A stretch of 63,999 bases of DNA, counting the filler, from Sphacelaria rigidula (lineage: Eukaryota), in the NCBI GenBank assembly GCA_964200075.2. It is 3 parts of 3 records of this genome, joined end to end, with 100 filler letters (N's around TTAATTAATTAA, not from the genome) between each part and the next. Parts side by side here need not be neighbours in the genome. Positions count along the whole stretch, not along the records: positions 1 to 21,679 come from CAXNAA020000397.1; 2 more parts are not named here. One strand, given 5' to 3'. Positions 2,961 to 39,174 of the stretch are shown piece by piece. Numbering within the stretch: position 1 is the stretch's first letter; every line of letters begins with the position of its first letter. The notes beneath the pieces were generated by a model. The model made no database searches. It saw only the letters and a program-made list of their open reading frames with translations, and was not told where the DNA came from. The translations under genes were made by a program, and so were the position numbers.

Positions 2961-4422
2961 GACCAGTAGGACTTTGATCAATTCTTTCGGCACGTCATCG
3001 AATGTAAACCAAGGTATTTAGTTGATGAGTTATATGCAACCCCGCCAGGTCTTTCGCCAAGAATCTGATCATCCCAAGGTTATTTGCGTTGCCTTATTGA
3101 AGTTGGAAGCGGTGTAGCACGAGAGCAGCAGTCTCTCGCTACACCACGGAACTGGCTCGCGCAGAATTAAAATATCCCACCAGTTTTTCCCGATTTCCGC
3201 TGACACGACAGGCGGCCCGAAAACATCCTAGTCCCCCGGAATACGTCGCTGGTCCAACAGAAACTGCCATGTCAGTAAAAGGGGAATGTTAAAACCCTGA
3301 ACTTTACCGTTCTATTGTACAGATTGTACTTGCACAGCCAAAACGCCTGCGTATATCAGGAAACCCAACACGACGGTGGATCTGATGACAAATAGCGAAA
3401 AATACTAATCGTTCCCGGCATCTTCCAGGAACGGTATTTGTTGTGCTTTTCGTCCACAGTTAGCATCGGTTTGGACAAAACAGCCGCTAAAAACACCCCA
3501 TGGTAGAACCAACCGTTCGAACCCTTGTATCGATTCAGAGGATTCTCGTGCTGGTTAGCTTGGTGTGTCGGGCAATACCAGAGTTGCGTGCCCGACACCC
3601 CCTCCCGAAATTACGTTAGAGTCACAGTAAACTGTGGGGCGAATGGATAGAGGCGACACTATCGGGTTCAACTCTCGGAGAAACAACCCGAGCACGGCAA
3701 GTAGCCGTTGAATGCGCACAGATGCGTGATAAGATGGTGATCCTTGGAGCGTCCCCTGTGGTCAATGTTATTTTTTTTGCGTTGACGCTTCATCGTATCA
3801 GCCGACGAGTGCTCATCGGAGGCGTCGGCTGATACGATTCTCTGTCGCGATACTGCCACCTGTTTATCAATTATCTCTACCTGCTCACCGCGGGAAAACG
3901 AGGAAAGGAGGGACCAATTTGATACAGCGCCCAGAGGTTCTTCAAAGATCCATGAGATGAAAATTCTATAGCCTTTGCATAGTCGCAATGCCCTCTGTAC
4001 TGTAGTGTCCACCCTTTTAACATGTGCGCCGACAGGTAGGTGGTGGGTACACAACCGAGTGACATGCGGGTACTTCCCTGAATTTTGTGCCAATTTCAGA
4101 GATATCTCTGATCGATGTGACCGCTTTATGTTACTTTATACGACGTAGGAACACCTGTTCACGCAGCCTCCGCAAACGAGTTTGGGGTGAACCTTTGTAT
4201 AACTTTTGCTCACATCGAAGAGTCGTGGTCACGTGTCTGTCCATCTCCCCAGCTGCGATGATCGACGAGTTACAACCCACAATGTTTGTGAAAGGGCGAT
4301 CTTGAGCCTGGTTCAGAAAATCCAACAGTTGTACAATGGAACCTGCTCATGCTTGCGCTGCTGTTGCCCTGCCACCGCTCCCTCTTTCCCCCAAATCTTC
4401 GAACGATCCCCCCGGAAAACAG

Positions 4423-5802
4423 CATCGATTGTTTACTGAGTCCCCGCGAGTGCAACGCATGGATAAACTTCGGCGAGGAACGAGGATTCGAGCAGAGTTT
4501 TCACAAACAAACATCCGAGATGGCCCACAGGGACAACGGCCGAATATCGCTGCACAGTCCTGAGACTGCGGCTGCTGTATTTGCGAGGGTCGGTCCCTTC
4601 GTGCCTGCTGAAATGGGAGGAAGGTGTGCAATACAACTATCATTATAACCCCCGGAAAGACATGAATCTCGCTGTGTGACCCGCTGCTTTTGACCTGAAC
4701 CGCGACATGCGGGAAGTGTTCTCGAGAGCAATTTCGACACGAGCCGGGTGCCGTCAACACTTGAGGCACGTTGAGATTGTGTGCACTTCAGTACCGTAAC
4801 GCGCATGATGTAGATAGAGCATGTGCGTTCTCCAGTTTTAGGTTCCCGTTTGTTTTCGGCCATTCTCGACTGTTCCGAGATGAAGCACTACTGAGAGGAC
4901 AGCAATTGCTCTTGCCGCGAAATAATCGCCCGTTCGCGTACGTATTTTGTTCGATCCCTTGTATACCCCAGAACCGTGGTAGAATGTAATTCAAACATCC
5001 GCCTGTACCGTTACGGCGTCGGTCAGCGATTCGGTAAGCACGTGGACGAAAGCGTGGAAGACGAAAACGGGAACATCAGCCAGTGGACAGTGCTCATATA
5101 CTTGAACGGGGGGGGCGGCGCAGAGGCGGGGGGATCGGAACAGGGCGGGGAGGCGGCGAGCGAGATGGGGGGCGGGCGGGTGGAGGAAGAGCCACTTCGA
5201 GGAGGGGAAACCATATTCTACAAGGTGTGGCGGCATTTCTGACCTGCTTTTCCATGCTCGAATATGTGTGTTTTTATAGTTTCACCGTGGTTGCCTGTTG
5301 TGATGGCATGTGCATGTCGCAGGTTTATCGCGGTCACCATTTATTTTTATGTCGACACCGACTGACTAAAATTGCGCGGTGATGATTCATGTAGGTACAT
5401 TTTTCGCTTTCGAGAGCGACTTTTTTTACCTGACCTTTGCCGTTTGTGACATCACTACTTATTTCCCTCCTGCGTGTCAAGGGTGGAGTCTTGCAACACT
5501 ACTTTGAACACTTCGCTGCTGCTTGGATTTGACGCTGTCACAAAATTCACACACGGGGATGTTTGGATTTCCAGCTTTGCAATCACATTCATAACCGTCA
5601 CAAAACCCCTCCATCACTCCTCCCCAAAACTCCTTGGATTGAGCAGGGAAATTATGGTGGCAAAGTCGCCGCGTCGTTCTCGCCGTTGAGGGGTGCCTGC
5701 CTCGTGCATGGGCATGGTCGGCAGTGCCTCTTGCACGAGGGATCAGGCGTCACTGCAGGCGTGAAATACCTTCTTAGGACGGACGTCATGTATGCGCCGT
5801 AG
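4423..5802 (+). CDS. 2OG-Fe(II) oxygenase (prolyl-4-hydroxylase-like), last three exons 4423-4623, 4972-5224, 5647-5802; 5' exon(s) not resolved
   Basis: GT-AG introns with consistent phases. Spliced protein contains LLSPRECNAWI, RDNGRI, IRLYRY...FGKHVD (HxD), TVLIYLN, GGETIF, LLHEG (distal His) and KYLLRTDVMY (2OG-binding Arg). Confidence 0.9.
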
Positions 5803-6497
5803 CGTCCACCCTCCCATGTTGAGTTGGTGTACGAAATTAACTTGCGCACCGCCGTCGGTGTGTTGATTTCTGAGCAGAGGGAGGGAAGTGTTTGCGTTCT
5901 TTGGAAGGTGCATATTATGAGGTATCCGTTTGGTTCATTTGCGTCTGAGAAACAGTTCGGGGTGGTACACAGAAGGGTCATACCTTGTCTTCGTTAGAGA
6001 AATGGCTTGCATGGTTCAGCATGACTCGTGCAGGGGGGGCATTTCGTCCCCTCACCAATTTCAGGACTACTCGTTTTCTTGTGTGTGCCAGATAAAAGGC
6101 GAACGTCAGTGTCAACGGTGGCGCTGCGATGTGCACGCAGCAAGTCGCCGTAACCTGCAAGACATGATCATTTCCCCCAGGAAATGTCCGGTCCATCGCG
6201 GATAGCTCTTCACGTGTTTGGTCGTTACTATGGATACGCCAGCAAAGAAAAAAAAGGATGAAAACAGTGACTTTTGCGTCAAATCATCACCGGCGCTACG
6301 TTACTGTTTGTTCAAAGCTCACACCAAACGTATTGCTGTTGGCCACCTCGATTTACTTTTTAGCCTACGTACCGGTGTTCCTACTGCAGCTCATACAAAA
6401 AATCGAAACAAGATCACATCGAACTCGTGATCGCACGGAGGCGACAGGAGCAGTGAGCAGTTTGTTGGAGTAACCATCAAAGTCCGCCCTCCCGGTG

Positions 6498-9400
6498 TCA
6501 AGGACAGAAGAGCGTCGGCAGCTTGCACTGCAACGGTGTAGACAACAAGAGGTGAAAGTAACGGCGAAAATTAAAGCAAGGGAGGGAAATGTAGGGGGGG
6601 GAGGGGGACAGGACGGGCGAGGGAGATGAGGAGCACCACACAGATCAGCACTGGTTTGGCCGATTTAATATTCAAGAACGATAGCAGCATCTCAGCAACA
6701 ACACGGGGCGCATTTTTGGGCACGTGTCGGAAGTATATTGTTGGCTGTGCTTGGGTGATATCGACCATGACTTGCTCGGGCAGAGTAGACTTATTTCGGC
6801 GGGCTTGACTGGCTACACGGTGATCACACTGCTTGAGACAAAGAACTGTCTCCAGCTCAAAAAGGACTAATAGCAGCAAAAAGTAACACCAGTAGGTTCC
6901 CTACAACCGTGCGACTAACCTGGAGTGCACCGCGCGCTCTGGTTGACCATCCAGGCACTTTCATTTTTTTTTACTTGTGCTTGATATCAAGTACGCCCTG
7001 ATGGGGGTACCCGTTGGTGGCGATTTGGTACAAAAATCAACATGCACGAAATTTCATGCGATTGCGCTGAAAATTGGCGGGCGTGTAGTTGACACCAAGA
7101 CAACAACAGCGATGCTTGATTCAGCTCCTAACCCGTCGCCGTTCGAAAAGTTACGGCCAAGACAGGTATTCTAGAAAATATATGAAACATTGAATGGGGA
7201 TCCCATACCCTCGGGAATTTAGACATGTCGGATTTTTCGCTCGAGGTTTGAGACTTGAGACATGAACTTTCGGGGAAAGGGGTAATTTGATCATCTTCAG
7301 GTCATTCTTCGAAGTGATTTTTAGTTGCTCCAAACCTGAGGACGTTTTTTTCCCTCGGAAATTCAGTAAAATTGACCAAATTCTTCGAGAAAAGAGACAG
7401 ATAACATCTCCAAGGTTGACCTTAAAATAATTGGTTTTCACGTCTCCTCGGAATTTCAGGTCCTAGCTCTCAAACCTAGAGAGAAAAATGCAGCAGGGTC
7501 GCGCTTTCTTATCTCGAGTAGTAGTGGGACCAGGCTGTAAGGTTATATAGTGTTGATGGAATATAGATACAGTAGGTGATCCGGTATAAGGCCGGGTTGA
7601 TCCGTGCCGGATGAGGCGGCCCTGTGTTGAAGACAGCCTACAATCGATTTAGGGCTGCTTCGGCCCTGTGTCGAATAAAGCGTCGTATTGTGTCCACAGG
7701 CTCCCCTTGTAAGACCGAACCGCCCTGACATCGGATCAACAAGCGGCAAGCGTTGTCCCACTTGACGGAGAAGAGAATCATTGCATTGCATTTATTCATT
7801 TATGGTGTGGTGTTGTCTCTGCGGCTGTCACAGAACTTCGTGCGCACGACCGGCCCTTCCAACTTGAGGCCAATTTGGGGTACGACAAAAAAACGACCTT
7901 ACATCAAAATGACTTCACTGAAAGCGTCCTTGTACCAGGTCACCTACTATATATTCATTACCAACAGTACATCGGTACGTTGTATTAGAAGAACAACCGT
8001 AAGTTCTCTACTCTACACTACACTTGTCACAGTACAGGATAATTAAATCTATCCTACCCTGCCCATTTTCATACATCCTCACCTCCCAACCACCAATATA
8101 TCGTCAAAAGCGGCGTAGAGTATACCTTGTCAGTGGGGCGCACAGTGCCGAATACTCAGTATACATGATTCCGAAGACGTGTGCGTTACACACGGCTGAA
8201 AATGCTCGTGGGAGAGAGAAAGTGTACGAGTGGTGAGTCTAAGCTCACCTCTGGGCACACGAAGGTCTTGTTTACTGCACCCACGTCAGTCCCTCGCCTG
8301 GACGTTTCACTGGGCGTTACCCTCTCGGCTTTGCCCAACACGCATCTGAAGTGAAACAGGCTGTCGCAGTTACCGCACCGAGTCACTGTCGACAACTGCA
8401 GAATGTAAAACACAGCAAGACGAAACGACTAGGTTTCAGTGACTACAACGCGGCACACACGCGGATCGCAAAGGCCCGTTTGCTTCCGGCCTACTGAATA
8501 CCGCAGAGCTCTGACAAACCTTTCGTTGGTATGGAATACTCCACTCGTGATGGCTGGCACTGTTTCTCAGGGAAAACCCAAGACTCAGACCTCGAGGAGA
8601 GAGTGGGATAAGACACGGGAGATACAAACAAACAGAAAAACAAATATCGCACCCCAGTAAATGAATCCACAAGTATGCAATTATCATTCCGAAAACCTCG
8701 GGGGTGGTCGCTCCTCTCCCACCCGGCTGCATCACGGACCAATTCAGCGGGTGCGAAGATAGTACTATAGCTATGATCCCACCATTGTGTGGTACCTGAA
8801 ACGGATAGATCCGGTCGCGAGCTTGACATATAGAACAGCTGCGGGCACTTGCAGCCTTGCAGGCCTCGCATTCGTTCGCCACGTGCGCCAATAGAATATC
8901 CACGACCTGTGTTGTACATCACATGAAAAGATATAGGTCATTCAACCAGAGCACTCAAGCAAAAAACGCCACCATGACGCCACACGCATGTTGAATGTGC
9001 GGTGCCAACACGAGTTTTGAGTCTAGCAAATACGGTATCCAGCCGTCTGTACTGTACATCAAGCCGGCACACATCCAACATATCGACAAAACAACGTCCC
9101 AACCGCCACGATCATACGCTACAGCAGCGCGTGAGGTATCCAGCCGTTACACATATCATGACTATTCAGGGGTTACACGCTCCATGACTATCCAGTCGTT
9201 ACACGCATCATGACAATCCAGTCGTTACACGCATCATGACAATCCAGTCGATACACATATTTCTGACTATCCAGCGATTACACGCATCATGACAATCCAG
9301 CAGTCGCACACATTGTGACTATCCAGCCGTTACAAGCGTCATAACTATCCAGCGGTTACACATATCAACGGTCCTGAAAAAATGCTCGTTGAACGGAGAA

Positions 9401-12400
9401 ACGTACGTCGTCCAAGAGGTCAACGAGCACGCCTTTCTTGACGCCCATCAGATCTTCCACCGAGTACAGGCCGGGATCCACCGCCAAATGCATCCTGGAT
9501 ATTTTTGGTTTCAGACGCACGTGAGGAGCAAAGGCGTCCAGGTGACCCTTCACCGCAGCACCGATACTCGGAAGGAACAGGGGGGCGATACTTTTCCAAG
9601 ACAATCACCGCACTAACGCACCACGATCCCGCAAATATCCCACCGAACGACATTCACCTGCGACGCAGGAATTTTTCCAGCAGACGCGCGCCGGCAGCGC
9701 ACTCTTGCTCGGGTGGGAACATGATCACACGTCGAAGTAGGTGCAGCTGCGTGCGGCGCATGCGCACCCTGCGTAGATCCTGCTCGGTTGAGAAAACGAA
9801 ACAGAGCAAGAAATCAGGCCCAGTTTGAAAACAAGCTTGGGTGTCAGGACTTATGTTCAAACATTGTAGTTTAGAATATTGGGCGTAGACTCCGTGCGTC
9901 GGGTGATGGGGGTGCGATCACTTCGTTGACGGGGCATCGCAGCGTGCTTTGCTTTGGGAGTAGCGGTGTCACTCCGGGAAAAGGCTCTTCAAGCAGGCTA
10001 TGCTGCGCCTTGTCTTTTAGGAGACACTTCACCAACACAGATTTTGCCAGCGATTCCTCGAGCACTCTGTGTAGAGATCCATCTATTGTAGACCCCGTGC
10101 CTCCCCCTGAAAAAATGCGAGAAACATCGCATACCGTAGCCCCGTACGGCCACCTCCCCCAAAGGAGCTTTCGCTTCATCAGATTTTCCGGGTGCGGATG
10201 GTGGCGGTTTGGTCTTTGTACGTCACCGCCATTTCGGACTACAAACGGTACAGGGGTAGTCTAGAAACGGTACTATTCGAAAATGATTATTGCTTCGAGT
10301 GTACTGCGGCTTTTTGGTCTAGCTCCGGTACAGCGAGGGATGAAGCGAAACCTGTCGGCTGTACGAGGCTACAAAATTCGTTTTTTTTCCTTCTCTCTCT
10401 TTTGGGGGAGCGGGGACACGGGTGCTGCATGTATCCCCAACTGGGGGGGATGAGGAATTGCCAACTAAAACGGCGTTTGTGGCGCGTTGTTCGCATTATT
10501 GCACAAGAATTGTATACTCCGTATATTTTTCACTATCCTTGGGGGTGATCATGATGATATTGGGTGCTCACGCAGCTGGCATGACACCGGGTGATGGGAC
10601 GTGGAATGTATGGAATGTATGGCATGGTCTCAAAACCGCTCAGGATAACCCTGCAGTTTTCCCCCACATTTTCGGGTGAAAAATGGGGAAATACAATGCG
10701 CCTGAAAAGTTTCCGAAAAGCACTCTAACCATCACGGACGGGCTCAACGCAAAAGAGAAAGAGAGGACATCCCCTCTGAGTTACAGTGCTACTGAGGGAC
10801 CACCGCAAACGCACACAAAACAGTAAAAACAAGAAAAAAAAAAGTACCACGGAAAAGTTCCTATTTACTAGCTCACATAATTGTGATGAAACAAATGAGG
10901 GGCCACCTCCGCCAGATCGATCGTGGGAAGGAATCGCGTTGCGTCCAGAAAAGCGGTCGCGGGCTTCGACACCCGGTGGAGCACGAAGTCCCAGTGGTGA
11001 ATCGCTCGGTGCGGAATCACTCGTCGACCCTCCTCGTGGCAGAGTCTGGATATCGCTCAAAAATGAGCCAAGACGTGACACCAGGACATCAGAATGGGTT
11101 AATCCAGCGGAAAGTGGGAGGGTCGGCCGAAAAAAAAATGAGATCCAGTATGAAGAGGGGGAAGTGGTCGAATCCATGCACGTGGCGCGTGAAGTTGAAA
11201 TGCGACGACAAGGATAACGGTCCGCCCGCTTGACTTGTTGACTAGCTCGATGGGCATTACCGCGAATTCTTCTTACCGAGAGAGAGAGAGATGCTCCGGG
11301 TAGATCGTGGCCAATCCACGCGACGACACGAGATACACGTGACTTGACTCGAAACAGCGGTGAAAGCATGTCATGTTCCACATGTCCAGTAGGAAAAGAT
11401 ACTGGAAGATAATAATCGGGGGATGTATATGCGTGAGTGTCCGCCACGCTCCGACTACAGGTACATGGTGCAGACGCATATCCTTCCTCACCTGCGACAG
11501 AAAAGTCCGTTCGCGAAACGACACGGCGTGTAGTCTTTCTTAATGCCCAAAAACTCGGCGGCGATCGTGCATCCGCAGCCCATGCACCTGTAACGCACGT
11601 CGTGCCATCGTTCAAGTGTCATATGCCGCCTCGCCGTTCGGTGTAAACGGAGCGTTCACGCCTCCGAGCGTTCGAAAAAAAAACGCCCCAAGATAAAGAA
11701 CAGCACGCATGTATACGAAAACAGCATGTACGTATATTCCCCAAGAAATAGCACGATTATGCTACATCCTATAAGAGGAGAAGGGTGGAAGCCGTGAGGC
11801 GGTGGGTGCATGCACTAGGTTTTGACCGTTTATAACAAGATATTTGAAACCGTGCGCACCAAGCATATAGTTAACCAACAGAAACCACCACAGTGCCCAC
11901 GCACACATGACGAGGAAAACCGAGGCACGCACGCCGGCGATAAAATAAGAACACCTCCGCATATTCGATCCGATGGAAACCAGATTTCTCAAAACGCTTG
12001 CAAACCAAACTGGCAACTAATCATTCTTCTCGGCGTTGATTCAAAAGATACGACTACCCTACACGTCCCCACAAAGACGCAGAACTGCACCTCCGATTCT
12101 GTATCCTAAGGCGAGCCTCGTCGTCCACCCAAGACCCCAGCTTCCCACCCGGGTCATCCCACGTCCTCATGCACAGGATCAGGTCCGCTCTTCGCCTTTT
12201 CCTCCCGGATTTGTCGCAAGTGGACAGCGCCTCGTTCAGCGCCCGCGCAAGCCGCGCTCGCAGACTCGCTTCGCCCGTCGTCTGCTCGCCCCGAGAGGCG
12301 TATAGTTCGTTACCAAACACGTTCCGGGGAGGGTTGGTGGTAGGGTTTGGGATAGGGCTGTGGTTACTGTTCAAGGACAAGGGCAGGGAACGATGTACGG

Positions 12401-15400
12401 AAGGATGGATGGGAGTAAGGTGAGGTATTCCGAAGTAGAACAGTGAATTAGATTTGAATCCTTTTGAGAGACCATTCTCGTTCCGCTCAGCACCATCCCA
12501 AGGAGCGACAGTGGTGGCTTCATCTTTGTATCGATCTTCATGGGTCTTGTGACAAAGAAGTATGCGGCTGGTCTTCACTCCATGTGCAACAAGCCCTACC
12601 AGTACGTACTCTACAGAACAGTGCAGACTGCAGCGTTTGTGAATACACTACTCGTTAGTAAAGTTACAAAGGTACGGGAACCCGAAGTGCTTCCGTCTAT
12701 ACACTAGAGTGCAGACTGCAGCGTTTGTGAAAACACGACTCGTCAGTAAAAATTACAGAGGTACCAGAAACCTGAAGTGCTTCGGTCTGTGGGCAAGTCC
12801 TGGGCGCATAAGAAATGACGAACAGTCACCAACAAAATAGACCTAAACTTTTTCATTGGCCGGCATTCCGGCTTGCGCTATTTGTTCATGAGGTGCCTTT
12901 GCAGGAGAACGTAAAAATCACCGCTTGGCTACTCGTATGTTGCAAAAGTCGGGAGGATATATCGGTCAGGTGCCAACCTCGGCAGGAATATTCACCAATA
13001 TTCTCGTTGTACAAAATAAAGCGTGTACAGTACGCAGTCTCGGGTAGTAATTCACGAGGGGAAAAGGCATCAATAATTATGATGGAAGCAGCTCGCGAAC
13101 GCAAATGGCTTGAGAAGGGAAATCACGAAGCGCGCGAGCACACGCGCACCTCGAGCAGACCCAAAAAATGGAGAAGGTTTGATAGATATCCCCCAATCTT
13201 TGCCGACAGCTTCCGTATCGGAGAGTTGGCCTTAAACCGGGGGGTCAACTTGTCGCGATGTACTCGCAAGACGCTCTCCTGCGTAAAAAAAAGCCGAGGG
13301 GCGAGGAAGCGAGAGCCAAGTGTGGGGCGGTGGCGCTCGGATAAGGAATGGATCAACATGTCGCACAGGAGACAGCTGCAAACAAAACAGCAATGATCAT
13401 GCCGTATCGAAGTGCCGATGACATCACCTCGTTTCACGTGACAATGACTTCACTTTCGCAATTTGACAGGCAGACGGAGGGGCTCAACCGCAGCCAAAAA
13501 CCGTGAGGGGCCGCCGCACGTTTTCCCTCGTAAGCTATGTTCGCCTTCTCATGCAAAGAACACGTGAAAGAATGCCATCATCCTAAAGACGTTGGATGAA
13601 AAACTATCAGGTTCACGAGTCAACCTGGTAGTAAGCATTTTCTATTTTCTCACCACTTCGACGCGCACGCGCTGCAACCATACCTCCAGTGTCCCCAGCT
13701 CAAACGGATCCGGAAATGCGGGAGGCTTCGCCATCTCCGTCTCCCGCACGCTGCTACTGTTCGCCACTCCTGTCATGTCTTGCTCCCCCTCTCCACCCCC
13801 TCGCGCCTCTCGCGACGTCGGGGTCACTACGCGGCGTCCCTCATCCTCCAGTTCCCACATCAGCCGCGGGTGCAAGGCACAGAGGCTATTTAGCCTCTTG
13901 CTCAGCACCCGCGTGCGCTGGGTCAGTCCTCTCGAGGCCGCCGCGACCTCCTGCAGTTGATTCGCATGCGGGTCTTCCCCGAGTGCCAAGGGCCAACCAT
14001 CTTCTGTAGCAGAACTAACACTGACTGTCCGCTCGCCGCCGACCCCCCCGCGCCTATCGGGCTGTGTGTTGTGCAATTGTGTCGCAAGAGGAGGACATAC
14101 CTCGCGGTAGGTGACTCGTAGCACGTACTGCAGACGGGAAATGGGGGGGCGTAGAAGTTTCACGGTCTGGTAAAATAAGGTGCTGGAATCGTAGGACGCG
14201 GATGTGTACAGGAGTGTCGGGAAGAAAACACAGTACACGACGGAGAGATGGGGATGCGTTCGTAGTGTGTTGAATTCGAGGTCAGGCAGGAGTGGACGGA
14301 TGTGGTGACGAACAGCGCGATCGACTCACTACTCGTGCAGCAATCTCGTCTCGCTGGGGGTGCAGTTTGAGATGGGCGGTTATGGTTGTTTACTGTACAC
14401 AGTATGTGCCCCCTTCTCGAGAGGATGGTAAGAGAAAAAGTACACCGACCATCGTGCGGGGAGAAGATCGTCACACCAGCCCAGACAAAACTCACCAAGG
14501 ACACAATGCGACGCTACTAGGCAGAGCAACATGCCAACGACCGTGGATATCGAAATCCCAACAGAACGAACAAGGCGAATTGAGTCTTGACCCTTTTGGA
14601 ACACATCGTCATTTTTTCTTCTTGCGAATCGACATCATTTTCAGTCATTTCAAGTCAAAATGATGCCGATTTACAGATACAAAAATCGTCAGCGGGTTCC
14701 AAAAGGGTTAATTTAGCACGCACGACGTCAACAGCCAAAGACGCAAAGAAAGAACGTACGTTTCCGAGCGCCTATTCTTTCTCCCTCACTTTCACTACAC
14801 AATGCACTTCCTCATACCGCACCTCGATGTGGGCCGCATCTGCATCCTCCGCATCGGCAACCTCAACAGCTGCCACCTCAATGGAAAATGGCGGCGCTTC
14901 AACGCCCTCCTTTTCATCATCCTCTCTCCCGCTCCCATCCACATCGCTGCCGCCTGATCGCGCGAACTCGAGCATCTCTGGCGACATGAAGGATTCCATC
15001 GGAGTATCCACCGCGACCACGGGTGCGCGAGGAGCCGAGAGCCACGCCACCGGCCAAGGCCATCCCAAAGTTTCCTTATTCAGATGCGAAACCGCCACTT
15101 GGTGGCATTTGTATCCCGAGGAAACAGGTGGGGACGAGAGCGAACGGGAGAAACGGTAGGGCTTGTAAGTATACGAAATCACACCGGAATGCACACGGTC
15201 GACCGCAGTGTGAAAAATTCAGTGTTGGACTGGGTCAGCTGGGCTGCAAACGTCTCTTTTCAGGCTTCGCGCACCACAGAAAAAAAAAAAGGCAATGACA
15301 CGCGGCAGTCGTCTGCGGAAAATAATGGAGTACGAGCTGGGCCAGCTGACAGTGATTTTTGAATGAATCCTGGCGATGGGATTGGTAATTCGAAGACTTG

Positions 15401-18400
15401 GACGCTGAAATTTTGACACGATATTTGTATCATCAACCCGCGCAATCATATTGGGGGTGCAGAGGGGAAAAAAAAAGAAGCTAGAGCGAGTTGAAGTTTC
15501 AGCAAAAATAGGGAAAAAACTTTAACTCCGTGAAAAAATAATAAATACGGCTGCACCCCAAACAATGTTGCGGGAACTCGCGTCCAGGACATGCTGCTAA
15601 AGTTTCGGCCAAAAATACCTCAAAGTGGGCGCTGCATAGCACTTTTCGTGTGACACGGCCGCGACCGTTTAATCCAAGTGATACAGGAGACTCCAGTTAA
15701 GGAGGACATGAGAAGGAACACCGATGGATTCTCTCTTTTTTTTTCGTCCGTCGCCAAGGTCATAATATATTATGCAGTACATTTTTTTCATATTTTTTTC
15801 TTTATTCAGCGGCGGTGCCGTGTGTTACCAGGTTGGTCTGCAGTTCACAGCGATATGCTCAAGTCGCACTGATTTGGAAAACTTCAGAAGTTGTGGTGTG
15901 GAAAGCGAATGCGAGATTGACTGCAGGCCCAGGTCGTACACCGTGAAGAGGTATATAATCGCTGTTATTTCCGTTGACAAGGAAGTGCGACTACGTCACC
16001 CACCGCGTGACAAACGCAGTGTAGTCGTGGGTAAAAAGTGTTTCGGTGCCAGACTTCAGACATCGGATGGAAAATAAAACGTATTGCTGTGCGCCGATTT
16101 AGTTTGTAGGTCGTGGCGACAACAAACAGAGGCCAACAGCACAGCGTAGACGGTAGAGCACACCGACGACACGAGGACCACCCAGATGCAATGCGACCAC
16201 CCAACGGCACACTTGAGCTAGAGCGATATCCTAAACAGCTCCAAAATAATCGCCAGCACCCGCACTCACCTGCAGCACCCATCTGATCGCCAGCTCCCTT
16301 GCCAATCCCACCGCTGCCTACCCCCACAACACCCCCTGTACTCGAGCCACTGCCGTGATCCTTGCGCGACTCTTCATCTAAGGACCGGAGTCGGATCTCT
16401 TCGGCCTTTTCAGCGACCAGCTGTTCCAAAGACGCCACCGTTTGTTCCGCCACGGCATTCTCTCTGCTTCCTATTCTACTTTCCGTGGCGAGCTGTGCTT
16501 TTCGCTCCACCGCGGTTTCAGCTTCGACCTCTTCCTGAAGGCCGGGCCTCGCGGCCAGCATATTCTCCACGGTGACAGTCGTCGATTCCTCCAGTAACTA
16601 TTATACGAGAGCGATGGGGTGGGTGGGTTAGGGGGTTCAAGACTTGTGGCAGAGGTCGGTGCTGCGGTATCAGTGAGGGTCCATAATGGTTACCTGTTGA
16701 TCAGAACGCGCAGCTCCTGGCTCCATCGTCGCCGACAAAGCGTGCAAACCAAGCACCCGCAGTTATGCAGAAGACGTACCAAGGACACTGGGGAGAGGGG
16801 AGCGAATAATGCAATGGCCACAGAAAGCTGATCTCGTCAGCCGTGCTCGAGCAAATCGTGTTGCTAACGACGCACGCCATGAACCCGTATGTTTTGTGCT
16901 TTGGCGCCAGTACAGAATGCACGTCAAGATGAAATAATTCAATATTTTGATCGACGACAGCGAGGCGCGAAATCCGACAAAAATTCTACAAATGACTGTT
17001 CGTGACACTTGCTCACCTCTCGGTAGCTCGTGTCCGCAACAGCAAGCTGTTCCAGCAGTTCGTCCCTCCGAGTCGCTATAGCAAAGGCTTGCTCCTGAAA
17101 CACAACGCGCCCCGGGTTCGCAAAAAATGTCAGCACGGCGCGTCGTATGGTATACCTTGTTCAACATGCAGGCGATTGAAGTGGAAAAGAACAAGCGTCG
17201 ACGGAGCTTGAATCAATGCAACAACTCATCGAGGTCGGAATTTTCGAAAAGAAACACTGATACGGTTTAATTCCTTCACTACTGATTTATACAAACCCGC
17301 GGAAGAACCACGCGTAAACTCAACCTGGAAGGTAGCTGTGCATTTCCCTTCGGCCGGGAAAATACAAAATAACAATTACGAACGCGAATCTCGTCACAAA
17401 CAGGTCTACAGCAGTTTCCGCCTTTGTGGAAGTGTGCTCTGGTGGCGGAAATCTTCCATCAACGTCGAAGCCCTGTTTCGGCACACAGAACCCATCACTC
17501 TCCGCTCGACGCTGCGACATCTGCAAGATGTAAAAAATACTCCGTTCCCCTGGCCAAAACGATGATGCCCCTCATACTGTACACGACACTTCGTACAAAC
17601 GCACCTCGGCCAATCGCAGAACCTGTTGCCGGGTCCTCTCCGCGCGCAGTAGCAGCTCCCCACTCGGCTCCGGTAACCTCCATCGCTCAGCTTTGAATGC
17701 CGTAACATCAGCTGTTCCGCAATCTTCGTCTCCATCGTTGTCATTCAAGATCGATGGCAGTCGAGCGAAGCCGCTCGCTAAGCCCACCTCGCCGCCGTTC
17801 GTGACGGCACTGCCGCCACCCGCGTCAGGTCGTACAGCACGGCCGCCATCTGCGCACACAGGATCATCGTTTTGTAGGATAGCACGACTCTTCCGGGGTA
17901 TCCTGCCCACACTTGTGCTGGACCCCTCGTGAAATTTACCGTTTGGACCCGACCGGTTAGCACCGTCAGTCTCTGCGGGTCTCCTCCGCTTTCGTATTTT
18001 CCCCAGCACTCGGCGGGTAACGGTTGCTCTGATCCCACTACAAACGCCCGTATCCTCCTCTCCAACAGAAGCATCGGCTGCTGCAGGTTCGTTCCCAACT
18101 CCCACCCTTGGGTGCAACACGGTTGCCCTTCTTGCAGATGCACTGTCTCTGTGAATCGAGGGAGCGCTAGCGGGAATCATGGAGTGTGAAGCAGTTCCAG
18201 CCGCCGCAGCAGCCGCCCCTCGCCCGCAGGCGATCACGGCTGGCTTGAACGACGCTTCCGATGAATGATTAGATCCGCCAGTTTCAGGTCGCCCCTGGTG
18301 ATCAACATCTTGATAATCGACTCCTCCACTGTTGCCAGTCCCGAAGACGAGAGTTGGAGCCGGCATATCCGTCATTTCTGTGACCCTCCACCCGCGAGAC

Positions 18401-21126
18401 GGCGGCAGAGTACCATCGCCCTGGCCATAGTACGCGATTCTTTTTTCTGCTCCCGGTTGCAAAATTGGGACCATAATGCACCAGCATGGTACACAGGGCG
18501 CTGCCGTTACCGTCGTTGCCGGCACGGCTGCCACTGCGTCGGCGATACTTGGCTTCTCTGGCGGCGCCTCTGACGCGTCGATCGCAACGCACTCGGCCCC
18601 CTGATTCGTTTCCCCGAGAACGGTAGACTCGCCAACATCAGCAGTGGCAGGAGCACCTACGGTAGCAGTAGCAGCAGCAGAAGACGTCTTGGCATCGACC
18701 ATTCGTACATCGTCGTCTTCATCGGTCCAGCAGACCTGACGGTAGATTTGGCAGCCATTCGGTCCCGTCAAGACGAGACTGTTGGACTTCTCCCCGGTAT
18801 CGTCGTCACTGTTGCTCGAATGGTCGGCAGATGCGACGTACTCGCCGTCGGATGCAGCGAGGCCCGCCCCCCGTACGTAGCATCGCAGACGGTTACGGGG
18901 GAACCTCGGCCACGTGTAGATGGTATTGGCAGCAACATTTTCATTATCAAACCAGCTGTGGTCAAGAGACAGTCGGAGAGATAGACCCCTCTCGTCCAGC
19001 CGACTCCGGAATTCCATCAAACACCTGCATATGCCATCCAGCACCGCCTTGCTCTGAAGTCCGGGTCGCAACCACAGAGGAAGGGCATCAGGGCGTACTG
19101 GCGGAGTATCTGATGTGGATGACGATGGTTCGTCCAAAAAATCATTTTCAACCTCATCGGTTGTATTGAGGTGTGCCGTTGCCCTGACGCTGACTCTGCC
19201 CCTACCGCAGACGCCACCCGTGGCGTCGGGATGCGCACTATCGACAGGGTGCTCGCTCGACGAAATAGCGGAGTCCCCGCCATGGTGCATGCCAGGTTCC
19301 CCCTCTTGCTCCTGGACAGTAGTGTTGTAGCTGCCAACGTTAACACTCAGTCCGTCATTAGTACGGGAATCAAGACTAGCAGCAGCGGCCGCGACCGCCG
19401 CTGATGTGGACGTCCCTCCAGCTCTGTCCCTGACCTCCGTGGCAACTGCAGCAGCCTTTTGTAATTCCATCACCACCGAAGAGGCGTTGTCCAGTCCAAG
19501 TATACCTCTCGCCCACGCGCGGCATCGTCCGTGGCCCGTGTGTACGCGCGACAAGTTGCTCACAGAATCACTCAACTGTCTTGAGTCCAAAACGCCACTT
19601 GAGCTACCACGAATCCCGCCCTCGCAAGAATTCTGGATTTTTGCATTCCCCTGGGCAAAAACGCCAAAGTCGTTGCCTTCCCGTGATTCGATGCCCTGGG
19701 CGACCTTACTCTCTGAGATGCTACTATTATCAGCAGCAATAGTACCAGGGGCACCTATAACCGCAACAGGCGGCCCATCGCTACCGGCCAGTCGAAGCAC
19801 GTCCCAGAAGTCGGGTGCAACGCCGCCGGCGCCGAAAAAAAGGCACTTCTCGAGCGCAACACAGAGGTGGGCCAAGGCCGGCCCAAGGTCGGTTTCTACG
19901 GCGCCCGTGTGCAGTACGGTCCCCGGTGCAGCGGACAGCAGGGCAGGTGCCTCCGTAGCCCGTTGGAGCTCGTCGAGCAGGATACCCATCTGCCGCTGCT
20001 CGTTGTCATTTTCTGCCTAGAACGTTTTAGCAGAAGGACATTGAGGAGTGCGTAGTGGATGTAGCGGATACAGACGCAACCCCTATGGAGGAAGATGCAG
20101 ATACGTTCTTTGTTTTTACTCCTTGACTGCAAAGTAGCTAATTCAAGTCAAGGTGAATATCTGCAGTGAACTAGACAAGCGCACGGCGAGAGAAGAAGGA
20201 GTCGGCCAAAAAAGCGGCCGCATTTTGGCCGTGTTATATTTTGCAGCGTCTGCGGACGACAGAGTGTTGTAGCACACGTGATATATCGGTCAGAGGGAAC
20301 ACCAAGAGTCAGCGGATGTTTTGAAAAGCGCATACTTCAGTGAAATAGGACTTTGAACGAGAGATGCCACCACGACGTATCTGAGGACAACAACACCGGA
20401 GCCGTAGGATACAGGGTACATCACCCGAGACGATGAGAAAACCGACCTCGCTTTTCCACTTGAGGCTGGCTCCACAGTACCATGGCATCCTATCTCACAA
20501 AATATCTTGATGAGATACTTCCAACGACACAACCCTTGGTGGCGTAGCCGTCGCAGTTCGAGACAGATGACGAGAAAATATATTTTGAATCCATTACCCC
20601 TGGTGCTAAACCTCGTAGCCTGTGGGTAATTAACACAATTGAATGAGGAGGCCACGCCTGGCTACGCTTGAGCAGTACTTCTAAATCAACATCGGATGAT
20701 GTTTACTCGTACTATAGTAGAGTATAGTAAAGTACAATGAAGTGCAGTGCAGTGCAGAGCAGCATAGTAGGGCCGTTGGGATGACGGGGGAGTCATTTCG
20801 GAACAATATTTCAACCTTCCCTTTAGGACGGCTTGTGTTGCGAGCAGAGCCGGCATGGATGTATGTTACGGTAAGGTGACAGAGACACTAGCTGTGACAC
20901 ACGGTTAATATTGGACGAGTGTGACCAAGTGTTGCGTACTGACAGCGGTGCAGACTGTGGGTACCAATGGTCTACACAACAAACAAAGACAGACCTTGCC
21001 AGTCCTTGGCTTCGCGTAGAAGCGGATAAACTCGTTGTACGTGCCACCGTCGACGCGAGCGAGCTTCTCTTCTGCAACCGCCGAGAAACGTCCCGCGAAA
21101 GCTTGGACCTCTTTCAAGTATTCCAT
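6498..21126 (-). CDS. RUN domain + coiled coil + PX-like + Rubicon-homology (RH/DUF4206) zinc-finger protein (Rubicon/PLEKHM1/DEF8-like), ~1593 aa. Exons: 21126-20995, 20016-17605, 17094-17017, 16597-16270, 15097-14823, 14127-13654, 13278-13150, 12281-12091, 11587-11492, 11045-10877, 9779-9658, 9494-9407, 8906-8796, 8395-8249, 6527-6498
   Basis: All junctions GT-AG and in phase (total 4782 nt). RUN motifs: LCVALEKCLFFG, DFWDVL, GRCRAWAR. PX-like motifs: HIEYVLRV, KRLNSLCALH, PPAFP, GYLSNLL. RH motifs: QNRRCMGCG, CRFANGLFCRRLCH, IPHRAIHHWDF, YSVEDL, HVANECEAC, CSIC...IYPF, RCGNCDSLFHFRC, CPEC. The first and last exons are the least certain. Confidence 0.88.
9137..9367. repeat. Intronic minisatellite, 26-bp unit (~TCCAGTCGTTACACGCATCATGACWA), about 9 copies
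   Basis: Directly visible head-to-tail degenerate repeats with no unique spacers, inside intron 8907-9406. Confidence 0.9.
12620..12788. repeat. Intronic tandem duplication (~89-bp period, 2 copies)
   Basis: AGTGCAGACTGCAGCGTTTGTGAA...GAAGTGCTTC.GTCT occurs twice. Confidence 0.85.
15330..15845 (+). mobile_element. Dispersed non-coding repeat (intronic copy); family also at 24695-25215 on the opposite strand
   Basis: GAGCTGGGCCAGCTGACAGTGATTTT...AATCCAAGTGAT...TTCAGCGGCGGTGC...TTACCAGGTTGG aligns along its length with the reverse complement of 24695-25215. Confidence 0.75.
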
Positions 21127-21480
21127 CGGTCATCTACTACTGTATTGTATGCAGTCTGCAGCACTGCGAAGGAAGTCCACGCTCTCGCAGCCAATTGGTG
21201 CAATATCCACAGCACACTGCTGTACAGCAGTACCGTGCACGGATGCACTAGTGTTGGAACACAGCCAGTACAGTACCGGCAAGATCTGTGGCTCCAGTAT
21301 CCCTACCCTGGATTCACCACAAGGATAGCCTATCATGCACCAGAAGACACCTCATCTACAGCTGTCAATGAGCTGTGCCGTCCTGGTGTATTGTTGTACC
21401 GTACAGTACAACGGAGGATGAGGATCTTGTACCCTCCGACCACGGGTCTGAGAAGGCAGAAAAATAGGGACGTGTACCCC

Positions 21481-21679
21481 TTTTTTTTTTTTGTCCCCAG
21501 AGGACAGGAAGGAACCTTTAACCATGCACTTCGCTATTTCTAGTCTCGTGCAGCGCTTCTAGTCGCTCCATCCGTCAGACATGCCCACCCGAGGGTCGAC
21601 ATGTCCGGCGAATGTATGGATGGGCACTAAGGTGGGAGTGCCCCCCCACCCAGGTAGTGTCGGACTTGGGAAGTAAAAC
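21481..21679 (-). mobile_element. Poly(A)-tailed structured retroposon (SINE-like) fragment, cut by the assembly gap
   Basis: T12 run followed by GC-rich self-complementary sequence (GGGCACT-loop-AGTGCCC) running into the Ns; lies ~350 bp upstream of the RUN/RH start codon. Confidence 0.4.
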
Positions 21680-21779
21680 NNNNNNNNNNNNNNNNNNNNN
21701 NNNNNNNNNNNNNNNNNNNNNNNTTAATTAATTAANNNNNNNNNNNNNNNNNNNNNNNNNNNNNNNNNNNNNNNNNNNN
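21680..21779. other. Artificial contig linker (N44-TTAATTAATTAA-N44)
   Basis: Exactly 100 bp with a six-frame stop 12-mer; identical to 43416-43515. Confidence 0.97.
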
Positions 21780-31838: not shown

Positions 31839-33627
31839 GTGACACCCAGGCAAGTGATACCTAAGTTGGTCGATGTTTCGGGTCGCATTTTGGGTTTATC
31901 TGATTCGGACACACCAGACCGTTCATCGTCTTCTACCGCAGCCCGCGCTTTAGCAACCGCTGCGGCCGACAAAGAACGTTCCGAAGCTATTAAAAAAGCA
32001 TCTTACGATAGAGTCGAGTCTGCCCGAGCAGCTGCAATACAGAGACAGTATATCCAGATGGACGTGAAAAGGCTTTAGGCCGCCGCACCCCGGTGGTCTA
32101 ATGGTCCGACTGTCGCCATTAGGGTGGAGACAACGGGGGTTCGATTCCCGATGCGTTGGATTCTTCTTCGCAATGTATGATTTCCACCGTGGAAAGAGTG
32201 AGAACGTGAGTAAACAAAAGTAGTCGACTGGGTTTGTGTGACGTAAGTTGAAGCGGTGCGAGAATGCTGACCCAATTCGCGAGACCAAAATGAAAGGCAC
32301 GTACCGGGGGAGAAATAGGGTGATCCCTTGCGACCACGGACCCATCCCGAGGAAGGGGAGGGGTTCAAAGTGTGAGGAAATAAATAAATAAATAAATAAA
32401 ATGCCTGCTGCGGAAAAGGAAGATTCAGGATAGATTACTTCTGCCCTCATCACATCCATTCGCCGTACAGTTTGCAATATCCTTCACTTGGCGGATGCCA
32501 CTGGCGTCCAACGCTTTGAAGATCCCAATTGGGTAGACGGCTGGTAGACCCCATTGCACAGAGCACTGCATCGATCCATCAGCCGCCGCTCTCCCGACAT
32601 CGCTACTTCTTTAACACAGATCCTCAACGGCTTCCTCGCCGAAATGGATCCGGATCGTGCCCAGGGGAAGATAGGCCCGGTATTGCTCTCTGATCTGGAG
32701 AGGCGTCTGATACGTTATTTTGACAAAAGCGACCAAGCAAGCGCCATCCAGAGGCTGAGTTCTTTTGTTGTCGCATCGGATGTCCCCTTCGCGGACTATC
32801 TCCGCGAATATAAGCTTTTGGTCTCTGGTACTATGGGTGTCGGACGCCAAAACGGACCGAGCGATGCAAGGTGTCAGACTCACGTTCGCAATAGGGTTGC
32901 TCAACAGTATCCGACTCTGATGCCGTCGTTGTTTCCGGGTGTCTTGGCGCATCGTGAGGTGCCTTACGCTTGTGTTGATGCTATGTGGTCTGCTTGTGTA
33001 CACTAAGAGGGTAATCTAACGCCCGCCATACGTGGCAAACCTTCTACGCCTCTGCGTTCACAAGCTACGGTTGTGTCCTCCGCTCATGCCCAAGGGTCTC
33101 GCGGCAGGAATTCGAGCTCATCTCATGCTTTATGGACCCCCGACTCGGTCGCCGGTTCAGTTATGCATGTTCAAAGTATCAGAGATGGATTCAGCGCGAG
33201 TTTTGATGGTTGGCCGTCTTCCGAGGAAACTTGGGATGACATTTATTTGATTGCAACAACGGCATTCATTACAGATGATCCCCACTTGTGGAACCCACTT
33301 CTTTCGTCTCCTGCTAGACACAATGCCTTCAGCAGTCATGCCAGCAGTTGCATCCACTGTAGTGTTCAAGGCCACAGTGTGCGTGACTGCGATAGTCCAT
33401 GCATCGATGCCTTTGATCTCTTGAACCCTGAATTGCAGGACGATGAACCCTCGTGGGACCGATGGCAAAAACGCATGCGCGACTATCGCCCACCGAACCA
33501 GAATTATCGTAATAATTCGAATCCACGTGGCCACAAGAGCTCTTCTCGCGGCCGCCGACAGAACAACAATAATTCCAACCCCTCGCCAGAACGATCATCA
33601 TTCTCGCGACAACAAACGATCCCCTGA
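31839..33627 (+). pseudogene. gag: gag-like region of the Gypsy element, interrupted by a SINE and stops
   Basis: Collinear ORF fragments 31839-32060, 32401-33006 and 33073-33627; the last carries the CX2CX4HX4C knuckle. Confidence 0.75.
32061..32400 (+). mobile_element. tRNA-derived SINE (340 bp) with (AAAT)n tail, inserted in gag
   Basis: Pol III A box TGGTCTAATGG (~32094) and B box GGTTCGATTCC (~32138); (AAAT)n tail 32378-32400; ATG duplicated at 32058-32060 and 32401-32403. Removal rejoins gag in frame (QYIQM-PAAEKED). Confidence 0.85.
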
Positions 33628-33774
33628 TAGACATCAGCGGACGGGGCCGACACACAACTCGAACCCCAACACCAAAAACCCTGGTACCTTCACTACGGAT
33701 CGCGTAGATCCATGATGTGCCGACGCCGGCGTTCTACAGTCTTCCGCGCCGCCGACAGCAGTAGCGAAGATTCT

Positions 33775-33992
33775 TTCAACACAGCCGGCGGAGTCCGTGA
33801 CTAAAATTGTTCACCCGGCTCCCCCGGCACTATGCAAGAGCGTTACAGACGGCCGTTCAAATCGACCCCCGTCTTTAACCTCCACATACTTTTCAACACA
33901 GCCCGCAGAGCCCGCGACTAGGATTGTCCGCCTGGCTTCCCCGGCACTATCCAGGAGCGCAACTGACGGCAGTTCATGTCCACCCCCGTCTT
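33775..33992 (+). repeat. In-frame 117-bp (39-codon) tandem duplication in the gag-pol spacer
   Basis: TTCAACACAGCC.GC.GAG.CCG.GACTA..ATTGT...CCCCGGCACTAT...CCCCCGTCTT occurs twice, 117 bp apart. Confidence 0.8.
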
Positions 33993-35883
33993 CATCCCTC
34001 CACACACCGCGCAACAGTTGTGTCACCCCGCGACTCAGATCCACACCCGGCCCTGAACTTGGTCCTTCAGTGCCGAGTATAAGTCTGGGGTGTGGGAGGA
34101 CCAACCACCAGTTCCTGAGGCAAAGGCTTCCCTCAGCGACCGCACGCACAGGTAGTAGCAAGCTTTCTTCAGCTAACCGGAGTGTTGGTGGTTTGAACTT
34201 GACCACATCAGATCATGTAATTCCCAATCAGTTCGATCAAGCTTCTTCCCTGCGATTTTCAACACGCACGGACCTCCCTTCGGCCGGTTTTAATAACAAC
34301 CATCCCAACATACCCTCGGCTATGACCCACCAGCCAAGCTTGCCTGCGGAAAGCAGCCCACAAGTTTCGCTCCGTCATGCCCCGATGCTGACCCCATCCA
34401 CCCGACTGGACGCAGTTGTGGTTTCATCCCAAAATGTTTTGGAAGTTCCCCGACCTTTGTCACGGCGAAAGGTAAAGCCCCGTAAGCATGCCCCCAAGGA
34501 CGCGCGCGCATCATCACGTACACCTCTTTCGAGCGGAAATCCTCGACCTCAATCTCTCCAAAATACGACGATTTCGAGCTCGATGGCTCTATCAAGTATC
34601 ACGGAAGAAACTAAATTAAATATTTCTGACGTCACTACTTCTTCAATTGACGATTCCAGCCCCGCACAATCTGGATCCCTCTCGGACGGCGATCCCTGTC
34701 AACCAAAAAGGATCATTCCCGAAATCGCTAATGGTCACTCCGACAGTGCCACACCTGGAAATAATATACCGTCCACACTCTTCTCTGGTGAGAAATCTGA
34801 CCCACCGGCGGATCACCTGCCATGCGTCTTTGCTGTCAGCCCCGCTGATCCTGACCAATTTACCTTGCCGGAACATGGTCCGGATCTTGTCGGCGGTAAA
34901 GTGTCTGTGGATCCGGCCACTTTCACTACACGCGTTGCGATCCACTCTGGTCCAAACGCTACCACGCCCTTGCGTACCCTTGTTGGACAGCGGCAGTCCG
35001 CAAACATTTATTCGAGAATCAGCATGGAAACACATGAAACAGACTGGTGCTGCTACTGCAGCTTGCGAAACCACCACCCAACCTCGAGTATGGGGCGGTT
35101 TCGGTGATTCTGCTGCACCCCTGAGGACACGAAAATCCGTACATCTCAGTGTGCAATTCTTTCACAACACCACTCGTTCTGCCAGCCTGGCAGTTTGGGC
35201 ATACGTTGTCCTCGACAGCACAATGCACCACGCCATATTATTGAGCAGGTATAGCTATATGCGGTTTAATAAACGAACCTACCGCACGCTTCCACTACTA
35301 TCGCCACATTCCACGCCTCGTGGAGAACTCAACCCCGAGCACTTTGGTACTCTCCACGGCGCCCTGGCCTACCAGAAGAATACTCAAGCAACCGCAGCTG
35401 CTTACCACCTACGATACAACGGTCGCGTTGGTACTACACTCTCCGACGAACCTTGACTTTTAGAAGTTGCACTAGTTCGCCAAAATGGCATGCCAGCACT
35501 TACGGGTCATTATCTTGCCAATATGTTACCCCGTATTGACGCACCAGCCGACACAGAACATTTTGTCTCGGCGGGACAACAACCCCTCCCTCTTACGTGT
35601 CATGCTAACTTGGAACCCGGCGATATTTTTGGAATCGCCGCTGCTCCCCTGATGCACATCCCACTCGAGACGTGCGTCACAGAGCCTGCTGCGCCAAACG
35701 CCACATCTCCTGCGGAGCCAGTCCACTGTGTCGATGAACTTTATTTCGACCTCGCCTCTGCGACTCCATCCCAGGTCCACACCGTGGATCCTGCCCAGTC
35801 AAATTCCGACCCTCCTGCTGAAGTGCTTCAACGCTTGTCATCAGATTCCCGGAATAGTTTTTTCAAATGTGGCACCAACTACC

Positions 35884-36140
35884 GAGTGATGCTACGGTAG
35901 GGGTACACAAATATTTTCTGAGGTTAGAATTGTCAGGAGCCCTTCATCTCATCAAAGACACGTCTTATGAAGATATGCGAGAGCACGCCAAGATTACTAT
36001 TCCAGTGTGCTGAGGATATCCCGAATTATTCTGCAAACGGGGATGCCCTGACCCATATTTTTGTGCGTCTAGAATCGTTAGGAGCCCCTGATCCAGACAA
36101 AAATTAACGAAAAAAGTGCACCCCTACCGTAGCATTGCTC
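35884..36140. mobile_element. 257-bp MITE, ~25-bp TIRs, GAG...CTC termini, 4-bp TSD TACC (Sola2-like by termini)
   Basis: GAGTGATGCTACGGTAGGGGTACAC at the left and GTGCACCCCTACCGTAGCATTGCTC at the right. Removal restores WHQLPPHMRDINFELHGPGW. Second copy at 45615-45870. Confidence 0.88.
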
Positions 36141-38928: not shown

Positions 38929-39174
38929 GACACTTTCTACGATAGCCCCCCTCCAAAACCAGCCCAAAAGTGTCACGAAAAAAATGGCCATACCGGGCCT
39001 GATGTTTGGGTTCAGGCTGCATGAAGCGCCTCATACTGGCGACATTGGCTAGAACGAACCCAAGCGTGGGAATGCCCAGCTGCTCGTTACCCTCGGCTTT
39101 TCCATTTCGATTTACGTGAAGATTTCGCTTCCCAAAACCATGCACTTTTTGGGGGGGCTATCGTAGAAAGTGTC
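38929..39174. mobile_element. 246-bp MITE, ~24-bp perfect TIRs, 4-bp TSD CACT, inserted in the integrase core
   Basis: CACT|GACACTTTCTACGATAGCCCCCC...GGGGGGCTATCGTAGAAAGTGTC|CACT. Removal restores DYIKHYGCPKRLLSDNG. Confidence 0.92.

What the first reader, a model, noticed from the sequence alone, without database searches (positions are those of the whole stretch)
6498..21126. Hidden 15-exon Rubicon/PLEKHM1-like gene with RUN + coiled coil + PX-like + RH architecture in a probable brown alga
Seen: exons mostly invisible in the ORF track splice in phase into ~1593 aa, with N-terminal RUN motifs, a PX-like middle and a complete Cys/His-rich RH domain split over 8 small exons. Known: RUN+RH proteins (Rubicon, PLEKHM1) are animal Rab7 effectors in autophagy and endolysosomal traffic, while plants have PX+RH proteins without RUN. 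Inference: a stramenopile protein combining all three could be an uncharacterised Rab7/PI3K-linked endolysosomal regulator and may bear on the ancestral architecture of the family.
Basis: partly seen in the sequence, partly recalled or inferred. Interest (0 to 1): 0.72.

Follow-up and report, generated by a model that had tools for sequence, protein, structure and literature searches.

The report
Brown-algal Rubicon-family membrane adaptor gene
This is a real, spliced brown-algal gene for a distant relative of the animal lysosome-trafficking proteins Rubicon and PLEKHM1; it belongs to an apparently unstudied stramenopile family with an extra unnamed domain, and its usual Rab7- and lipid-gripping residues have changed, so it may work differently from the animal proteins.

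The parts
6498..21126 (-). Whole gene, ATG to stop; 15 exons, 1583-aa RUN–X–PX–RH protein
   Evidence: Spliced frame without internal stop; spliced contigs; orthologue P0170
20995..21126 (-). Exon 1 (aa 1-44)
17605..20016 (-). Exon 2 (aa 45-848): RUN, domain X, basic patch, start of the helical segment
   Evidence: Single 804-aa open frame; covered by contigs in all three spliced runs
18925..20013 (-). RUN domain, aa ~46-408, broken by two low-complexity inserts (aa ~125-189 and ~246-347)
18337..18900 (-).
   Evidence: Beta strands in the model; a profile built from six non-ochrophyte members scores the window protein 12.0 bits vs 1.0 best of 200 shuffles, hhalign 93.7%; no Pfam hit
17980..18015 (-). 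Polybasic patch, aa 712-723 (8 K/R in 12)
   Evidence: 7-10 K/R in 12 in 4 of 4 brown and 5 of 5 non-ochrophyte members examined; 6 in Tribonema and 5 in the 3 chrysophyte-type proteins examined
16376..17706 (-). Conserved charged segment, aa ~815-948 (end of exon 2, exon 3, exon 4); coiled coil inferred, not shown
   Evidence: Conservation about 0.43-0.56 vs 0.12-0.30 in linkers; weak heptad bias only
17017..17094 (-). Exon 3 (aa 849-874)
   Evidence: Both joints listed
16270..16597 (-). Exon 4 (aa 875-983)
   Evidence: Both joints listed
14823..15097 (-). Exon 5 (aa 984-1075): conserved Trp/Pro motif and first PX strand
   Evidence: Both joints listed; alignment
12225..14891 (-). Degenerate PX-fold domain, aa ~1053-1285 (exons 5-8), lacking the canonical Tyr and PPK-loop Lys
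13684..14127 (-). Exon 6 (aa 1076-1223)
   Evidence: Both joints listed
13150..13278 (-). Exon 7 (aa 1224-1266)
   Evidence: Both joints listed
12091..12281 (-). Exon 8 (aa 1267-1329): end of PX, second basic patch (aa 1293-1297), start of RH
   Evidence: Both joints listed
6525..12122 (-). Rubicon homology (RH) zinc domain, aa ~1320-1575, exons 8-15
11492..11587 (-). Exon 9 (aa 1330-1361)
   Evidence: Both joints listed
10877..11045 (-). Exon 10 (aa 1362-1418)
   Evidence: Both joints listed; RH_dom 41.1 bits
9658..9779 (-). Exon 11 (aa 1419-1458)
   Evidence: Both joints listed
9407..9494 (-). Exon 12 (aa 1459-1488)
8796..8906 (-). Exon 13 (aa 1489-1525): region matching the Rab7-contact zinc cluster of Rubicon
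   Evidence: RH_dom 28.3 bits; downstream joint listed
8249..8395 (-). Exon 14 (aa 1526-1574), with a ~25-aa brown-algal insert in the last zinc finger
   Evidence: Both joints listed; alignment
6498..6527 (-). Exon 15, coding part (aa 1575-1583 and stop)
   Evidence: Joint 6527/8249 in three runs; same ending in P0170

Best explanation
A late-endosome/lysosome (vacuole) membrane adaptor of the RH family, descended from a stramenopile RUN–X–PX–RH protein. Shown: the gene, its splicing, the order and folds of the domains, the intact zinc scaffold, and the residue changes. Inferred from family knowledge: the RUN domain binds a small GTPase (Arl8 or a Rab) and/or a tether such as HOPS, as in PLEKHM1; the PX fold and two basic patches hold the protein on anionic membrane; the helical middle is a spacer; domain X and the RH zinc module are protein-binding surfaces. 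In the ochrophyte branch the PX no longer has the PI3P pocket (it keeps the alpha-1 His of the secondary site) and the Rubicon-type Rab7 pocket has been remodelled, so recruitment probably depends on RUN and on non-PI3P lipids, with Rab7 binding weak, lost or replaced by another partner.
Against: No localisation or binding datum exists for any member. The contact columns also vary among non-ochrophyte RH proteins (Ser, Gln or His at F889), so divergence does not prove loss. K887 is Arg in 4 of 7 and I890 is Val in 5 of 7 brown proteins. All C-terminal zinc ligands, which Rab7 binding requires (PMC2993745), are kept. The PX and RH folds were modelled on the Discosporangium orthologue, with four canonical PX rows in the alignment that may have biased the PX model. 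Arl8-contact residues of RUN were not checked.
Confidence: 0.5

Rival explanations
1. It is still a PLEKHM1/Rubicon-like Rab7-GTP effector; the interface has co-evolved or uses different side chains on the same zinc scaffold.
Against: F889 to Arg, R827 lost, a 5-6 residue insert beside the T825 position, and no Arg-rich terminal helix; a related ochrophyte group has dropped the module entirely.
Confidence: 0.3
2. It is a Rubicon/Pacer-type regulator of the class III PI3-kinase complex.
For: RUN and RH lie at the same ends as in Rubicon, with a long middle region.
Against: No RUBC_PIKBD (PF21054) hit in the window exons or in full-length orthologues, while P0117 (Choanoeca) and P0145 hit it. 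PLEKHM1 shows that RUN+RH alone does not bind Beclin 1 (PMC2993745).
Confidence: 0.07
3. It has left the endolysosomal pathway and acts elsewhere, for example in the nucleus, with the basic patches as import signals and the last zinc finger as a PHD-like reader.
For: Two Lys/Arg clusters; sub-threshold PHD hits on exon 14 (E 0.004) and on P0170 (E 0.0015); loss of the PI3P and Rab7 residues.
Against: The PHD hits are below cut-off and also occur on ordinary RH proteins; RUN and PX folds are kept with conserved cores across brown algae.
Confidence: 0.13

Closest known systems
Human PLEKHM1 (RUN–PH–PH–RH; Arl8b, HOPS, LC3 and Rab7 adaptor)
   Different: PX fold instead of PH domains; extra domain X; no convincing LIR; most Rab7-contact residues replaced; the RH domain does not group with PLEKHM1.
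Human Rubicon (RUBCN; RH–Rab7 structure 6WCW)
   Same: RH fold and zinc ligands; RUN at the N-terminus.
   Different: No PIKBD; has PX and X; T825, R827, L883, K887, F889, I890 and the Arg-rich last helix are not kept in the window protein; ~25-aa insert in the last zinc finger.
Stramenopile RUN–PX–RH proteins in public records (Hondaea GBG32067.1 'DEF8-like'; Mucochytrium and Cantina EukProt entries)
   Same: Same domain order including domain X and the basic patch; most likely orthologues; one clade is not rejected (p-AU 0.39) but not shown.
   Different: Their RUN and PX pass Pfam cut-offs and keep Arg-Tyr/Phe and (in most) the PPK-loop Lys; the brown-algal ones are degenerate and insert-laden. 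None has a functional study that I could find.
Animal DEF8-type C1–RH proteins
   Same: RH domain; the name that databases transfer to the Hondaea protein.
   Different: No C1 domain in the brown-algal proteins; the C1–RH proteins form a separate group in the tree. That these C1–RH rows are DEF8 is recalled, not taken from a call.

Membership tests
RH-domain family (Pfam PF13901) | Profile match above the curated cut-off | tested here: met
   Exon 10 41.1 bits and exon 13 28.3 bits vs 28.1; orthologues 128-168 bits
RH-domain family (Pfam PF13901) | Cys/His ligands of the four zinc clusters, and the RH fold | tested here: met
RH-domain Rab7 effectors (Rubicon, PLEKHM1) | Rab7-contact residues of the Rubicon RH domain | tested here: not met
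   Of nine columns examined only A886 is identical and M822 conservative (Val) in the window protein; the Arg-rich last helix is absent. These columns also vary in other RH proteins.
RH-domain Rab7 effectors (Rubicon, PLEKHM1) | Direct binding to Rab7-GTP | not testable with these tools
RUN domain (PF02759) | Pfam cut-off (22 bits) | tested here: not met
   14.4 bits, E 0.044 on a 239-aa piece; no hit on the whole exon or on the orthologues
RUN domain (PF02759) | RUN helical fold and motif blocks | tested here: met
PX domain (PF00787) | Sequence profile match | tested here: not met
   No Pfam hit; own profile no hit; hhalign 0.7%
PX domain (PF00787) | Three-strand, three-helix PX fold | tested here: met
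PI3P-binding PX domains | Arg-Tyr at beta3/alpha1, Lys in the PPK loop, Arg in alpha2 | tested here: not met
   Tyr is Leu and the Lys is absent in all 7 brown proteins shown; rule from PMC6449406
Rubicon/Pacer subfamily | PI3K-binding domain (PF21054) | tested here: not met
   No hit in the window pieces scanned (13 of 15 exons, two of them in part) or in 4 full-length orthologues; P0117 and P0145 do hit
PLEKHM1 subfamily | PH domain(s) between RUN and RH | tested here: not met
   No PH hit; the position is taken by a PX fold
PLEKHM1 subfamily | LIR motif binding Atg8 | tested here: inconclusive
   Pattern scan gives six positions; three lie inside folded domains, and the one in the helical segment (Y872) is kept in 4 of 5 orthologues but is not a clear LIR
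DEF8 subfamily | C1 domain before RH | tested here: not met
   No C1 hit in the brown proteins while many animal-type rows hit it

The most novel reading that the evidence does not exclude
Stramenopiles have their own RH-protein lineage marked by an uncharacterised beta-domain fused behind RUN. In photosynthetic stramenopiles it has been uncoupled step by step from PI3P and Rab7: pockets remodelled in brown algae, and the whole Rab7-binding zinc module deleted in a chrysophyte-type group. The RH stalk and first zinc cluster would then have a Rab7-independent job that may be the older function of the domain and may also exist in the animal proteins.
Probability: 0.3. Interest if true: 0.65.

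Novelty: new variant of a known kind. Interest (0 to 1): 0.42.

Why it matters
The structural paper on Rubicon calls RH proteins a metazoan class (PMC7382272). This family, with the amoebozoan RUN+RH proteins, points to RUN...RH as an old eukaryotic frame with an exchangeable middle (PH, C1, PIKBD, PX). It also offers a natural series for asking what RH does without Rab7: pocket largely kept (P0070), remodelled (brown algae), deleted (chrysophyte-type group). The window genome gave only this one RH locus, so a knockout in a brown-algal model would be a direct test, and domain X is an unannotated module worth a structure. The importance is moderate: it is comparative cell biology with no functional datum yet, and the architecture can already be read from Pfam on other stramenopile proteins.

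Full report
THE GENE. The finding lies on the minus strand of one contig of a 244-Mb fragmented genome. I marked candidate splice sites by eye and by script. Two first models failed. Laying four public runs on 3500-21670 settled the structure: three runs from two studies show joints at CT..AC boundaries, and the fourth, evenly deep, shows none. The RNA status of the runs is not on record, but 12 of the 14 introns appear as joints in all three spliced runs. The final model has 15 exons, 4752 nt and 1583 aa, from ATG 21126 to the stop ending at 6498. Introns 1 and 12 were not among the displayed joints (17 were not shown). They follow from contig lengths and from orthologue P0170, which aligns over the whole length at 57% identity with the same first and last residues.

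ORTHOLOGUES. Full or nearly full orthologues come from Nemacystus, Cladosiphon, Ectocarpus and Laminaria, and a C-terminal half from Discosporangium. Pfam gives them only RH, which is why the architecture is hidden. Conservation along the protein falls into blocks separated by low-complexity linkers.

A MISSED DOMAIN. Directly after RUN lies a beta-rich domain (aa ~417-604, here X) with a PPxxGW...PAP motif and no Pfam hit. A profile from six non-ochrophyte proteins recovers two held-out ones (64.8 and 73.6 bits), chrysophyte-type proteins and the window protein (12.0 bits vs 1.0 for the best of 200 shuffles), and hhalign links the two sets at 93.7%. None of the animal-type or amoebozoan RH proteins among the 180 sequences searched hit it. 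Its fold is open.

THE FAMILY. A search of 1.84 billion representatives with the Laminaria protein gave 1059 hits, of which the best 150 were listed. Of 48 scanned first, 5 carry RUN, PX and RH above cut-off: Hondaea (GBG32067.1, named DEF8-like), Mucochytrium, Cantina, one labelled Durusdinium and one unnamed. Five of 7 scanned later do too, two of them cluster mates of the first five. The Durusdinium-labelled protein groups with thraustochytrids at 99 and is probably mislabelled. Tribonema has a divergent member. Thirty further proteins end before zinc clusters 2-4 (30 of 30 without a later CxxC); 29 of them group together (support 80), only one is named (Chromulina nebulosa), and a subset group with the brown algae at 96. 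RUN was detected in only 1 of the 11 of them tested, whereas X or the PX-like segment was detected in several. RUN+RH without PX occurs in two amoebozoans, and a PIKBD+RH protein in a choanoflagellate. A single stramenopile clade is not recovered and not rejected (p-AU 0.39); the shared domain X is the better argument for common descent. With members in both Bigyra and ochrophytes (group names recalled), RUN–X–PX–RH is probably ancestral to stramenopiles, while RUN...RH is older. Earlier notes of this scan on Naegleria (RUN-bromodomain-RH) and Giardia (truncated RH) point the same way but are unchecked.

MECHANISM. In Rubicon, Rab7 is bound by zinc clusters 2-4, the end of the stalk and the last helix, and acidic substitutions at T825, L883, K887, F889 or four helix Args reduce colocalisation (PMC7382272, parts 1-2 of 4 read). 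Mapped through, the window protein has E1444 and A1446 for T825 and R827, A1503 for L883, A1507 for K887, R1510 for F889 (Arg in 6 of 7 brown proteins; Phe/Tyr in 30 of 50 other RH rows) and S1511 for I890, and it ends eight residues after the last zinc ligand without an Arg-rich helix. Against over-reading this: K887 is Arg in 4 of 7 and I890 is Val in 5 of 7 brown proteins, these columns vary in other RH proteins too, and the zinc ligands needed for Rab7 binding (PMC2993745 passages) are intact. For PX, four side chains are required for PI3P (PMC6449406 passages); the brown proteins lack the Tyr and the PPK-loop Lys but keep the alpha-1 His of the secondary site, whereas Cantina keeps Arg-Tyr and Lys. 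There is no PIKBD, PH or C1 domain. PLEKHM1 binds Arl8, HOPS, LC3 and Rab7, with RUN contacting HOPS (PMC10852212 passages), and the best RUN matches here are Arl8b complexes. I therefore favour an endolysosomal adaptor recruited through RUN and anionic lipids with a remodelled RH surface (0.5) over a conventional Rab7 effector (0.3), a non-endosomal role (0.13) or a Rubicon-type PI3K regulator (0.07). Every functional step is inference; no binding was shown.

NOVELTY. Ten searches listed no paper on RH proteins in stramenopiles. A review of autophagy in protists mentions Rubicon only for the host (PMC10104450, one passage), a kinetoplastid PX survey has no mention (PMC10380299, term search), and PMC8624279 and PMC5608401 were seen as passages only. 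The library lacks most subscription papers and I read no supplements. The architecture is nonetheless readable from Pfam on public Hondaea and other proteins. Verdict: a new variant of a known kind, interest 0.42.

Noticed in passing
window 4420-7111, + strand: A convergent 2OG-Fe(II) oxygenase gene (Pfam PF13640 27.2 bits on 4982-5221; GT-AG joints 4621/4970 and 5222/5645). Contigs cover 5645-6529 without a break and continue to ~7111, so its last exon appears to overlap this gene's last exon and 3' end. Strand cannot be read from contigs.
   Followed up: partly
window 21133-21131, - strand: An out-of-frame ATG lies 7 nt upstream of the start codon; it could lower translation. Contig lengths suggest a 5' leader of about 230-240 nt.
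   Followed up: no
proteins P0027, P0031, P0047 and 27 others: A chrysophyte-type group whose RH domain stops before zinc clusters 2-4, the Rab7-binding part; parallels an earlier unchecked note on Giardia.
   Followed up: partly
window 9107-9391: A 26-nt minisatellite of about 11 units inside intron 12.
   Followed up: no
window 14587-14711, ~15330-15870 and ~21480-21670: High-copy repeats in introns 4 and 5 and upstream of the gene (depth in the DNA-like run rises from ~70 to 10,000-67,000); 14587-14711 is a 55-nt inverted repeat, MITE-like. Another inverted pair lies at 7232-7489 in the last intron.
   Followed up: no
window ~33000-40600, + strand: A decayed retrotransposon with reverse transcriptase (E 1.4e-18) and integrase zinc-binding (E 3.2e-11) hits in separate frames.
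   Followed up: no
window 21680-21779: An N spacer with a TTAATTAATTAA core joins contigs; only 1-21679 lies on the gene's contig, so sequence beyond is not true neighbourhood.
   Followed up: yes
window 48859-50856, + strand: A 665-codon open frame with no Pfam hit.
   Followed up: no
protein P0099: Labelled Durusdinium trenchii in NCBI/UniRef but groups with thraustochytrid proteins at 99; probably a contaminant sequence.
   Followed up: partly
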